From contig DATNHM010000034.1 in NCBI GenBank assembly GCA_035604955.1, forward strand, positions 10,889 through 74,888: DNA of 64,000 nt, written 5' to 3'. Every line of letters begins with the position of its first letter. The stretch's first letter is position 1. Source of the DNA: Candidatus Limnocylindrales bacterium (GTDB taxonomy: Bacteria > Verrucomicrobiota > Verrucomicrobiia > Limisphaerales > UBA11358). Both the position numbers and the translations under genes were made by a program. The notes under the pieces are model-generated. The model made no database searches and was not told the DNA's origin. It was given only the letters and a program-made list of their open reading frames with translations. Below are positions 39,035 to 40,096 of this stretch, in pieces.

Positions 39035-40096
39035 ATGGCCGGACTCCTCGACGAAATTGAGCCTCTGAAGCAGGCTGCGCTGGCCGAATTGAAATCCGCC
39101 GCCGATCTTGCCGCGCTTGAACAAAGCAAAGGCGCATGGATCGGACCGCACGGGAAGTTCACTGCGCTCATGAAACAGCTCGGCACGCTGTCGAAGGAGG
39201 AAAAACCCGCCGCCGGCAAGGCCATCAACGCCGCCAAGGTCGAACTTGAAGCCGCGCTGGCTTCTCGCCGTGAAGAATTGGAATTGAAAGCCGCGCTGCC
39301 CAGGGAACCGACCGATTTCAGCGCACCCGGTCGCCGCCGTGCCCTCGGCAAGTTGCATCCGCTCACGCAAGTGACCGAGGATATTGTCCGCAGCTTCCGC
39401 AAAATCGGGTTCGTCGTCGCCGACGGCCCCGAAATCGAGGACGAATATCATTGCTTTGACGCGCTCAACACGCCTGCCGACCATCCCGCCCGCGACACGC
39501 AGGACACGTTCTATCTTGCAAACGGCGCAGCGAATGTTTCTCCCTCTCCTGGGGGAGAGGGCCGGGGTGAGGGCGGTCGTCAACCACTGTTGCTCCGCAC
39601 TCACACTTCGTCCGTCCAAATCCGCGTGATGGAAAAGCAACCGCCGCCCATCCGCATTATCGTGCCGGGCCGCGTCTATCGTCGCGACAACGCCGACGCC
39701 ACGCACAATCCGACGTTCCAGCAAATCGAAGGACTCTATGTGGACAAAAACGTCACCGTCAGCGACCTCAAGGGCACGGTGGAATTTGTTTTCAAGGAAC
39801 TGCTCGGCGAGGAAACCAAGATCCGGTTCCGCCCCCATTATTTCAGTTACACCGAGCCGAGCTTTGAGATTGATTTCAGCAACGCCCTCGTGAAAAGACT
39901 GGGCAAGGACTGGCTGGAAATCGCCGGGTGCGGCATGGTGCATCCGGAGGTGTTCGAGAACGTTGGTTACGACCCGGAAATCTGGACCGGCTGGGCCTTC
40001 GGCTTCGGCATCGAACGCATCGCCATGATCCGCTACGGCATCAACGACATCCGCCTTTTTTACGAGAATGACGTGAGGTTTTTGAAACAATTTTAA
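39035..40096 (+). CDS. pheS: phenylalanine--tRNA ligase alpha subunit
   Basis: [23 protein letters not shown], class II motifs ([36 protein letters not shown]). It carries the repeat insertion at 39539-39576. Confidence 0.93.
   Translation: [353 protein letters not shown]
39539..39576. repeat. family A palindromic micro-element inserted in frame in pheS
   Basis: tCCCTCTCC-tggg-GGAGAGGG-CCGGGGTGAGGGCgg is translated as [13 protein letters not shown]. It lies between the conserved DTFY and LLRTHTS motifs. Confidence 0.7.

What the first reader, a model, noticed from the sequence alone, without database searches (positions are those of the whole stretch)
39539..39576. Same family A element inserted in frame in pheS, in the opposite reading orientation
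PheS reads [36 protein letters not shown]. The DTF(W/Y) and LLRT(Q/H)TS motifs are only about 5 residues apart in E. coli PheS (from memory). The extra DNA is CCCTCTCC-tggg-GGAGAGGG-CCGGGGTGAGGGC, the same core as in mnmA. The element lies in the same orientation on the plus strand as the mnmA copy, but pheS is read from the plus strand and mnmA from the minus strand. Both reading orientations are therefore open and tolerated. This copy lacks the left outer arm seen in mnmA.
Basis: partly seen in the sequence, partly recalled or inferred. Interest (0 to 1): 0.65.

Follow-up and report, generated by a model that had tools for sequence, protein, structure and literature searches.

The report
BoxC repeat translated inside PheS loop
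A 37-base structured DNA repeat known from between the genes of E. coli (BoxC, also called the triplex motif) lies in frame inside the essential gene pheS of a peat-soil verrucomicrobium, in a protein loop that related bacteria have filled many times with different repeats. This is a known repeat in a new setting, not a new kind of element.

Summary
pheS (39035-40096, +) has about 18-20 extra codons between DTFYL and LLRTHTS. Their core (39540-39573) is tCTCCCTCTCC-tggg-GGAGAGGG-CCG-GGGTGAGGG. The same 20-mer occurs in mnmA (minus-strand gene) and, with two mismatches, in a pabB-like gene; none is expected by chance.

"Family A" is the published BoxC / PIT / TMECO type-B motif. The pheS copy is 92-95% identical over 38-39 nt to copies in 4464 of 5426 E. 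coli genomes. The exact 20-mer occurs in more than 120 loci from many phyla. The missing left arm is the normal three-block form.

The insertion is old and shared by many Limisphaerales PheS orthologs. Other close orthologs have an empty 6-codon loop. Others hold at least eight unrelated repeat families or microsatellites at the same place, which is the only indel hot spot in the protein.

Among 15 carriers, four-fold degenerate third positions inside the three BoxC blocks never vary (0/69 cells). They vary in 26% of cells in flanking pheS and 25% in the BoxC loops and edges.

In-frame palindromic repeats are already known (Rickettsia RPEs, GTAG REPs in Opitutus). BoxC inside genes, and its conservation at silent sites, appear new. 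Interest is moderate.

The parts
39035..40096 (+). pheS, phenylalanine--tRNA ligase alpha subunit, 353 aa
   Evidence: TIGR00468 346 bits. PDB PheS hits reach E=4e-97.
39518..39589 (+). Loop-coding segment between DTFYL and LLRTHTS: 24 codons ([24 protein letters not shown]). It consists of a 21-nt upstream linker, the 36-nt BoxC core and a 15-nt downstream linker.
   Evidence: Empty orthologues have 6 codons here and E. coli has 4. AlphaFold2 gives pLDDT 56-60 and coil here, against 92.9 for the whole model.
39542..39549 (+). BoxC block 1, the C-rich stem CCCTCTCC
   Evidence: It pairs with block 2 in the predicted fold.
39550..39553 (+). BoxC loop 1 (TGGG)
   Evidence: Positions here vary among carriers.
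39554..39561 (+). BoxC block 2, the G-rich stem GGAGAGGG (GGGAGAGGG if 39553 is included)
39562..39564 (+). BoxC loop 2 (CCG), which defines TMECO type B
   Evidence: definition in PMC4666352.
39565..39573 (+). BoxC block 3, the G-rich third strand GGGTGAGGG
   Evidence: Its four-fold degenerate sites are invariant in all carriers.
2852..2890 (+). BoxC copy inside mnmA (gene 2172..3302 on the minus strand): CCCTCTCCCCGC-cca-GCGGGGAGAGGG-acg-GGGCGAGGG. An extra left outer arm, CCCCTCACC, lies at 2832-2840.
   Evidence: About 17 residues are extra relative to E. coli MnmA 2der. The predicted fold is -51.9 kcal/mol, z = -4.9.
54615..54682 (-). BoxC-family copy inside a pabB/trpE-like gene (53729..55333, minus strand). 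The canonical three blocks lie at 54615-54651 on the minus strand. An extra hairpin and an outer arm extend to 54682.
   Evidence: It is read as GEGRGAG, the same frame as in pheS. It is an insertion relative to E. coli PabB.

Best explanation
The segment is a copy of the BoxC / PIT / TMECO repeat. This is a roughly 37-nt unit made of a C-rich block, a complementary G-rich block and a second G-rich block. As single-stranded DNA it folds into a hairpin, an intrastrand purine-motif triplex or a G-quadruplex.

Shown: a copy entered the short loop between DTFY and LLRTHTS of PheS, in frame and without stop codons, in an ancestor of a subgroup of Limisphaerales (Verrucomicrobiota). It has been inherited since and reads through in frame as [12 protein letters not shown] within an essential gene's ORF (translation itself was not assayed). 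The loop lies between class-II motifs 1 and 2, is predicted to be disordered and varies in length in all bacteria, so the enzyme tolerates it.

Shown: the same loop, and two loops of PheT, have been filled independently in sister lineages by other short palindromic repeats and microsatellites.

Inferred: these genomes experience a steady flux of small structured repeats, and selection on essential proteins lets only in-frame insertions at permissive loops survive.

Shown: the three BoxC blocks are held constant at the nucleotide level even at silent positions, while the linkers and the BoxC loops drift at the silent-site rate.

Inferred: something acts on the DNA or RNA sequence itself. It could be selection for the structure or for a binding factor, or repeated correction from other copies. 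Constraint on the peptide does not explain it. How BoxC copies itself is unknown.
For: Identity of the element:
- It fits the published pattern CCCTCNCCC-N3-6-GGGNGAGGG-N3-GGGNGAGGG with loop 2 = CCG, i.e. type B.
- It is 92-95% identical over 38-39 nt to sites in 4464 of 5426 E. coli genomes, median 6 places per genome, with no annotated feature under the listed matches.
- The exact 20-mer is present in more than 120 loci from Proteobacteria, Verrucomicrobiota, Planctomycetota, Acidobacteriota, Myxococcota, Chloroflexota, Deinococcus and Bacteroidota, almost always as tCTCCCTCTCCC-loop-GGGAGAGGGyCGGGGTGAGGG.
- In peat metagenomes contig depth rises 100-400-fold exactly over 39539-39574. Unrelated flanks begin at 39536-39540 and 39573-39580.

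Insertion:
- E. coli has 4 residues at the site.
- Six close orthologues have 6-codon loops: NTTDKR, ASGSKL, KTTDKR, NTGDKR.
- Among 121 bacterial PheS representatives the commonest loop length is 4 aa.

Age:
- 81 of 116 close PheS clusters carry the 24-aa form.
- The core sits at the same 21-nt offset and in the same frame in diverged carriers.

Permissive hot spot:
- This is the only substantial internal indel region among 81 orthologues.
- It is the only internal window segment absent from more than 30% of a bacteria-wide alignment.
- The AlphaFold2 model has mean pLDDT 92.9, with only residues 161-180 low (56-60) and coil.
- At least eight unrelated repeat families occupy the site in orthologues, and PheT shows two comparable sites.

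Nucleotide-level constraint:
- Among 15 carriers the linkers are 51-54% identical and the core stems 94%.
- Four-fold degenerate third positions differ from the majority in 0 of 69 cells inside the stems, 401 of 1542 (26%) in flanking pheS (Fisher p = 2e-9) and 17 of 68 (25%) in the BoxC loops and edges.
- The result is the same in 14 mutually diverged carriers.
- One carrier, L200, has a compensatory change, CCCGCTCC / GGAGCGGG.
Against: - The carriers were picked because the motif is recognisable, which inflates conservation. Decayed copies exist (L125, L142, L131, L200), so the constraint is not absolute.
- The cells in the Fisher test are not phylogenetically independent.
- The neighbour-joining tree of 690 nt of flanks is star-like. 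It places BoxC carriers among carriers of other repeats and among empty sites. Single origin is therefore inferred from the shared offset, frame and linker similarity, not from a resolved tree.
- No target-site duplication or terminal repeat marks the insertion, and no mobilising enzyme is known.
- Outside pheS only two further BoxC matches were found in about 400 kb of related DNA, so a high BoxC flux is not demonstrated for this family.
- Translation of the loop is inferred from the intact essential ORF, not observed.
Confidence: 0.75

Rival explanations
1. The BoxC core looks conserved because it is repeatedly renewed, not because of selection in place. The renewal could be independent site-specific insertions into this loop, or gene conversion or template-directed repair from other BoxC copies in the same genome.
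For: BoxC carriers are scattered among other loop states in the flank tree. A second BoxC variant, the four-block palindromic form with loop 2 = ACG and read in another frame, sits in the same loop in L141, L164, L170 and L195. The family therefore entered this loop at least twice. Nested and duplicated forms occur (L129, P0120, P0005). Holder et al. report that TMECO loci are unusually unstable.
Against: All type-B carriers share the same 21-nt offset, frame and total length, with linkers that are alignable but diverged. The BoxC loop and edge positions have drifted at the same rate as flanking silent sites (25% against 26%). That is expected for in-place divergence and would be a coincidence under re-insertion. 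A conversion tract of about 35 nt would be very short.
Confidence: 0.2
2. The element has been recruited for a nucleic-acid-level role in pheST. Examples would be an mRNA hairpin / G-quadruplex switch that paces translation or sets mRNA stability, or a DNA structure or protein-binding site.
For: Silent sites are frozen in all three blocks, including block 3, which has no Watson-Crick partner in the three-block form. The G-rich blocks lie on the sense strand in pheS and in the pabB-like gene, in the same reading frame. GGG-AGA-GGG-CCG-GGG-TGA-GGG (G-tracts of three, loops of three) fits the G-quadruplex consensus, and the E. coli motif was described as a G4-hairpin-duplex switch (PMC5100583).
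Against: Close relatives manage with an empty loop or with unrelated repeats at the same place. The mnmA copy is read from the other strand. The fold energy of the pheS copy as RNA is no better than shuffled sequence (z = 0.11). The earlier studies cited by Holder et al. found no promoter or terminator activity, and Holder et al. found no in vivo triplex footprint. There is no Rfam match.
Confidence: 0.15
3. The segment is an ancient lineage-specific protein loop selected for its peptide ([12 protein letters not shown]), and its resemblance to a repeat is incidental.
For: The peptide is conserved in most close orthologues. The loop varies in length across bacteria in general.
Against: It is 92-95% identical in nucleotide sequence to E. 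coli intergenic BoxC. Silent positions are frozen, which a peptide constraint does not explain. The neighbouring linker residues are free to change. Relatives have empty or unrelated loops.
Confidence: 0.03

Closest known systems
BoxC / PIT element / TMECO intrastrand-triplex motif of E. coli and other Proteobacteria (Holder et al. 2015, PMC4666352; earlier work by Bergler 1992, Bachellier 1996 and Hoyne 2000, as cited there)
   Same: The three blocks are the same, with loop 2 = CCG (type B). Identity to E. coli copies is 92-95% over 38-39 nt. The element is dispersed and multi-copy, and loci that hold it are variable.
   Different: In E. coli MG1655 all 23 copies are intergenic. Here all three copies in the window lie in frame inside housekeeping genes. 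Loop 1 is short (2-4 nt). The host is a verrucomicrobium, outside the 262 proteobacterial genomes reported.
HPG1 'G-quadruplex-hairpin-duplex switch' motif of E. coli (Kaplan et al. 2016, PMC5100583)
   Same: The paper contains both the GGGAGAGGG and the GGGTGAGGG strings, so it appears to describe the same repeat from the G-quadruplex point of view. I did not read its motif table. The pheS copy fits the G4 consensus.
   Different: That work is about sequences upstream of genes and a proposed regulatory role. Nothing here shows regulation.
Rickettsia palindromic elements (RPEs; Ogata et al. 2000, summarised in PMC10969869)
   Same: Both are short palindromic repeats inserted in frame into unrelated housekeeping genes, with gene function apparently preserved.
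   Different: RPEs are about 100-150 bp, restricted to Rickettsia and unrelated in sequence. They are not a hairpin plus a third G-block.
Intragenic GTAG- and CGTC-tagged REPs, most numerous in Opitutus terrae, a verrucomicrobium (Di Nocera et al. 2013, PMC3733652)
   Same: They show that in-frame REP insertions in verrucomicrobial genes are already described. Some PheS orthologues hold what look like GTAG-tagged dimers in this very loop (GTAGGACAGGC...GCCTGTCCTAc).
   Different: The BoxC copy has no GTAG or CGTC tag, and no RAYT-type transposase is implicated.
MITEs
   Same: Both are small, non-autonomous and dispersed, and both are sometimes found inside genes.
   Different: No terminal inverted repeats of a parent insertion sequence and no target-site duplication are seen at the pheS site.

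Membership tests
BoxC / PIT / TMECO | Pattern 5'-CCCTCNCCC N3-6 GGGNGAGGG N3 GGGNGAGGG-3', with at most one stem mismatch | tested here: met
   The pheS copy reads CCCTCTCCt-gg-GGGAGAGGG-CCG-GGGTGAGGG. Blocks 2 and 3 and loop 2 are exact. Block 1 has one mismatch, or equivalently there are 8-bp stems with a 4-nt loop, so loop 1 is shorter than the published N3-6.
BoxC / PIT / TMECO | Direct sequence similarity to E. coli copies | tested here: met
   92-95% identity over 38-39 of 45 nt in 4464 of 5426 E. coli genomes, median 6 places per genome.
BoxC / PIT / TMECO | Dispersed, multi-copy, with variable flanks | tested here: met
   Three copies in the window. A 100-400-fold depth spike with divergent flanks in peat metagenomes.
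BoxC / PIT / TMECO | Intergenic location (all 23 copies in E. coli MG1655) | tested here: not met
   All three window copies are inside ORFs with strong family matches. This is a property of the E. coli copies rather than part of the sequence definition, and it is the main difference.
BoxC / PIT / TMECO | Single strand forms a stable intrastrand purine-motif triplex in vitro | not testable with these tools
   The base triads are compatible on paper (G.G:C, T.A:T, A.A:T). This needs CD or NMR on the oligonucleotide.
Rickettsia palindromic elements | Sequence membership in RPE-1 to RPE-10, about 100-150 bp | tested here: not met
   The unit is about 37 nt and matches BoxC. The resemblance is in behaviour only.
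GTAG / CGTC REPs (RAYT-associated) | GTAG or CGTC tetranucleotide at one end of the stem-loop | tested here: not met
   The flanks of the pheS copy are ...aatgtttct and cggtcgt....
MITE | Terminal inverted repeats plus a target-site duplication | tested here: not met
   Comparison of empty and filled sites shows no duplication.
Rfam RNA families | Match at gathering score | tested here: not met
   0 matches in the whole window.

The most novel reading that the evidence does not exclude
BoxC is not passive junk in pheS. Its three blocks are kept by selection on the nucleic acid itself, inside the coding sequence of an essential gene. This would imply a sequence- or structure-specific interaction shared from E. 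coli to Verrucomicrobiota: a hairpin / triplex / G-quadruplex element, or a conserved factor that binds, copies or repairs it. The codon frame of pheS would then give the first internally calibrated evidence of constraint on this repeat, which was first described in the 1990s and still has no known function. The PheS and PheT loops would act as safe harbours where such elements can be studied.
Probability: 0.2. Interest if true: 0.75.

Novelty: new variant of a known kind. Interest (0 to 1): 0.5.

Why it matters
BoxC / TMECO has been known since the 1990s and is widespread, yet it has no established function or copying mechanism, and it was described as strictly intergenic in E. coli. This locus adds three things.

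- It can sit in frame, apparently read through as protein, inside essential genes of a distant phylum.
- Inside a coding sequence the silent positions give a built-in neutral yardstick. By that yardstick the three blocks are frozen while the loops drift. This argues for a constraint on the DNA or RNA that cannot be measured in intergenic copies.
- One PheS loop, and two PheT loops, work as natural insertion-tolerance assays. They show how a flux of small structured repeats adds low-complexity loops to core enzymes.

There is also a practical warning for annotation and phylogenomics of Verrucomicrobiota: these loops are repeat DNA, not homologous protein characters.

Tried and rejected
- Rfam gathering scan of the whole window gave no match.
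- The first AlphaFold2 run, on 23 close homologues, gave an unusable model with mean pLDDT 46. The second, on a bacteria-wide alignment, worked.
- A neighbour-joining tree of 690 nt flanking the loop was star-like. It could not be used to count gains and losses.
- I looked for target-site duplications by comparing empty and filled loops and found none. The MITE reading was dropped.
- RNA folding of the pheS copy alone is no better than shuffled sequence (z = 0.11), so folding energy is not evidence here.
- The public runs that hold this sequence are kept only as contigs. They show the copy-number spike but cannot show presence/absence polymorphism within a population. One contig in X6 skips 39515-39584 (70 nt). 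It probably comes from a relative with a different loop and was not interpreted further.
It shows breadth of distribution and is not a census.
- The literature search found no report of BoxC inside coding sequences, but only open-access text was searched.

Full report
**What is there**

The ORF 39035..40096 (+) is PheS (TIGR00468, 346 bits; PDB PheS hits to E = 4e-97). It reads ...[43 protein letters not shown].... In the alignments to E. coli PheS, query residue 161 matches chain residue 160 and query 186 matches chain 165. E. coli therefore has 4 residues where the window has 24.

The DNA at 39540-39573 is tCTCCCTCTCC-tggg-GGAGAGGG-CCG-GGGTGAGGG.
- exactly inside mnmA (2871-2890 on the + strand; the gene is on the - strand);
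- exactly inside pheS (39554-39573);
- with two mismatches inside a pabB/trpE-like gene (54615-54634, - strand; the gene is also on the - strand).

None of 100 shuffles gave a match. Each of the three segments is extra relative to solved homologues. The observation and its statistics hold.

**What the element is**

The hosts include Enterobacter, Klebsiella, Citrobacter, Acinetobacter, Variovorax, Rhizobiales, Archangium, Geomonas, Acidobacteriota, Planctomycetota, Verrucomicrobiota, Chloroflexota, Deinococcus and Bacteroidota. In nearly all of them the context is the same: (t)CTCCCTCTCCC, a 4-8 nt loop, GGGAGAGGG, YCG, GGGTGAGGG, with no left outer arm.

A full-text search for the two G-blocks led to Holder et al. 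2015 (PMC4666352) and Kaplan et al. 2016 (PMC5100583). Holder et al. define the motif as 5'-CCCTCNCCC N3-6 GGGNGAGGG N3 GGGNGAGGG. They call it TMECO; earlier names were BoxC and PIT element. Their findings:
- Type B has CCG in the second loop.
- They counted 3610 copies in 262 proteobacterial genomes.
- All 23 copies in E. coli MG1655 are intergenic.
- The single strand forms a triplex in vitro, but they found no in vivo footprint.
- Earlier work that they cite found no promoter or terminator activity.
- Loci that carry the motif are unusually variable between strains.

The pheS copy is a type-B unit. A 45-nt query centred on it matches 4464 of 5426 complete E. coli genomes at 92-95% identity over 38-39 nt, with a median of 6 places per genome and no annotated feature under the listed matches. 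One match that I inspected lies between two CDS.

The window comes from a peat metagenome. In three such metagenomes, contig depth rises from tens to 1100-4270 exactly over 39539-39574. Unrelated flanks start at 39536-39540 and at 39573-39580, which marks the borders of the repeat unit.

The mnmA copy is the four-block palindromic variant, and the pabB copy has an extra hairpin in loop 2.

**Is it an insertion, and how old is it?**

The 120 best PheS homologues are 86-94% identical and are named Limisphaerales or Verrucomicrobiae MAGs where a name exists. In 116 of them the flanking motifs could be located, and every one has an expanded loop of at least 20 aa. Loop states:
- 81 have the 24-aa form [23 protein letters not shown](x).
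- Others have 39-45-aa doubled or nested forms.
- Others have a 25-aa form, SPSPAGAGEGGAAAPGEGRGEKPF.
- A few have unrelated fillings.

This set is ranked by a score that includes the loop, so it is enriched for carriers.

Eighty metagenome loci, found through peptides outside the loop, gave DNA for orthologues at 81-93% identity. At the same place they show the following:
- Empty 6-codon loops (NTTDKR, KTTDKR, NTGDKR, ASGSKL) in six loci.
- The type-B BoxC unit at a fixed 21-nt offset and in a fixed frame.
- The four-block BoxC variant read in another frame (SPGSATLSPTGERDGVRG).
- BoxC with an enlarged first or second loop.
- Apparent GTAG-tagged REP dimers (GTAGGACAGGC...GCCTGTCCTA).
- A CCGCTACA/TGTAGCGG palindrome family (TAPLQN...AVCDRR).
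- A GGAGCGTC.../GCCGGCGAGACGCCGGC family.
- An A/T-richer palindrome (KSKTEANE...SSLPSLSSVKQF).
- CTCAACC and GACTCAAGA microsatellites.
- Nested combinations of these.

The segment is therefore an insertion. It is old and inherited in part of the clade, and the site has been hit independently many times.

**Why this site?**

Among 81 orthologues the only substantial internal indel region is window residues 164-183. The one other internal indel is a 5-column insertion after residue 201 in one or two sequences.

In 121 PheS representatives from across bacteria the loop between DTF(Y/W)x and LLRT(H/Q)TS is most often 4 aa but ranges up to 85 aa. In a bacteria-wide alignment it is the only internal window segment missing from more than 30% of sequences.

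An AlphaFold2 model built on that alignment has mean pLDDT 92.9. Only residues 161-180 are low (56-60), and they are coil.

The loop lies between class-II motif 1 (GFxVxxGPEIE) and motif 2 (GRVYRRD...), just before the RTHTS strand. This placement rests on my knowledge of the family, not on a tool result.

PheT, the next gene but one, has two comparable sites. The window and its orthologues carry a range of repeat-derived fillings there as well. Di Nocera et al. 2013 (PMC3733652) had already reported in-frame GTAG REPs in another verrucomicrobium, Opitutus terrae. The Rickettsia palindromic elements are the classic precedent.

The simplest reading has two parts. These genomes carry a steady flux of small structured repeats, and purifying selection on essential enzymes leaves only in-frame, stop-free insertions at permissive loops. 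A contribution from repeat-on-repeat targeting or structure-induced repair cannot be excluded. The nested forms and the reported instability of TMECO loci hint at it.

**Constraint on the DNA**

I compared 15 carriers of the type-B copy, including decayed ones. Pairwise nucleotide identities:

| Region | Identity |
|---|---|
| 18 nt upstream linker | 51% |
| 9 nt downstream linker | 54% |
| 690 nt of flanking pheS | 84% |
| Four-fold degenerate sites in flanking pheS | 61% |
| 36-nt BoxC core | 89% |
| Core, three blocks | 94% |
| Core, loops and edges | 77% |

I then counted four-fold degenerate third positions against the column majority:
- Inside the blocks: 0 of 69 cells differ.
- In flanking pheS: 401 of 1542 differ (26%; Fisher p = 2e-9).
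- In the BoxC loops and edges: 17 of 68 differ (25%).

The two four-fold sites in block 3 are also invariant (29 of 29 cells). Block 3 has no Watson-Crick partner in this form. The result is unchanged in 14 carriers that are mutually less than 72% identical at flanking four-fold sites. One carrier, L200, has a compensatory pair, CCCGCTCC / GGAGCGGG.

The peptide cannot explain this pattern, because the linkers show that the loop is nearly unconstrained as protein. Either the nucleotide sequence or structure is selected, or the blocks are repeatedly corrected from other copies. That the BoxC loops drift at exactly the silent-site rate favours in-place evolution under constraint.

Caveats:
- Carriers were chosen because the motif is recognisable.
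- The cells are not phylogenetically independent.
- The flank tree is unresolved.

**Comparison with known systems, and novelty**

The element is a member of BoxC / TMECO by sequence. It departs from the E. coli description only in lying inside genes. It behaves like RPEs and like the intragenic REPs of Opitutus, but it is not a member of either family: it has no GTAG or CGTC tag, a different size and a different sequence. It shows no MITE hallmarks and has no Rfam match.

As far as the searchable literature goes, these points are new:
- BoxC in frame inside essential genes.
- Its inheritance across a verrucomicrobial clade.
- The codon-calibrated evidence that all three blocks are held constant.
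- The extent to which one loop of PheS collects unrelated repeats.

The mechanism by which BoxC spreads remains unknown, and nothing here identifies it.

**Verdict**

This is a new variant of a known kind. Interest is moderate (0.5). It would be higher (about 0.75) if the silent-site constraint reflects a real nucleic-acid function or a conserved interacting factor, to which I give a probability of about 0.2.

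Noticed in passing
window 41508-41582 (pheT 40913..43456, +) and the pheT segment encoding DASPKRPDSAARCPHQEERR (PheT residues about 620-640): PheT carries two further repeat-derived in-frame inserts. The first is a 31-nt inverted repeat, read as GGALRRPDSTEKSGAHGTRPSE. In orthologues both sites hold a range of other repeat families or are short, so they are hot spots like the PheS loop.
   Followed up: partly
L144 5686-5757 and 6456-6527; L192 5326-5397; L129 5803-5874: In several relatives the last 24 codons of pheS ([24 protein letters not shown]) occur again 0.3-1.5 kb downstream of the pheS stop, at 83-96% amino-acid identity. 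This looks like att-type duplication left by something that integrates at the 3' end of pheS.
   Followed up: no
window 40137-40904 (+): A 255-aa beta-class carbonic anhydrase (Pfam PF00484, 132 bits), with a hydrophobic, possibly signal-like N-terminus that was not tested, lies between pheS and pheT, which are usually adjacent.
   Followed up: partly
P0120, P0032, P0069, L129 (PheS loop): Further elements are nested inside the BoxC copy, between GEGR and GEG, i.e. in or next to loop 2. A recurring ...ATQFCGEG junction gives loops of 43-70 aa.
   Followed up: no
window 38969-40735 (-): A 588-aa ORF runs antisense across all of pheS. It is almost certainly spurious and shows that ORF length alone is unreliable in this G+C-rich DNA.
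   Followed up: no
window 33651-35890: Tandem divergent repeats of about 240-290 nt (families D1 and D5, 63-71% identity) suggest a protein made of repeated domains.
   Followed up: no
window 47649-47743: An A/T-rich 32-nt inverted repeat, 81% complementary with 31 nt between the arms, is made of ATGATT/ATCAT-like units and is unlike the G+C-rich repeats elsewhere in the window (I4).
   Followed up: no
window 39515-39584, run X6: One peat-metagenome contig joins 39514 directly to 39585, skipping 70 nt that include the whole insert. It is probably a relative with a different or empty loop, but the contig sequence could not be inspected.
   Followed up: no
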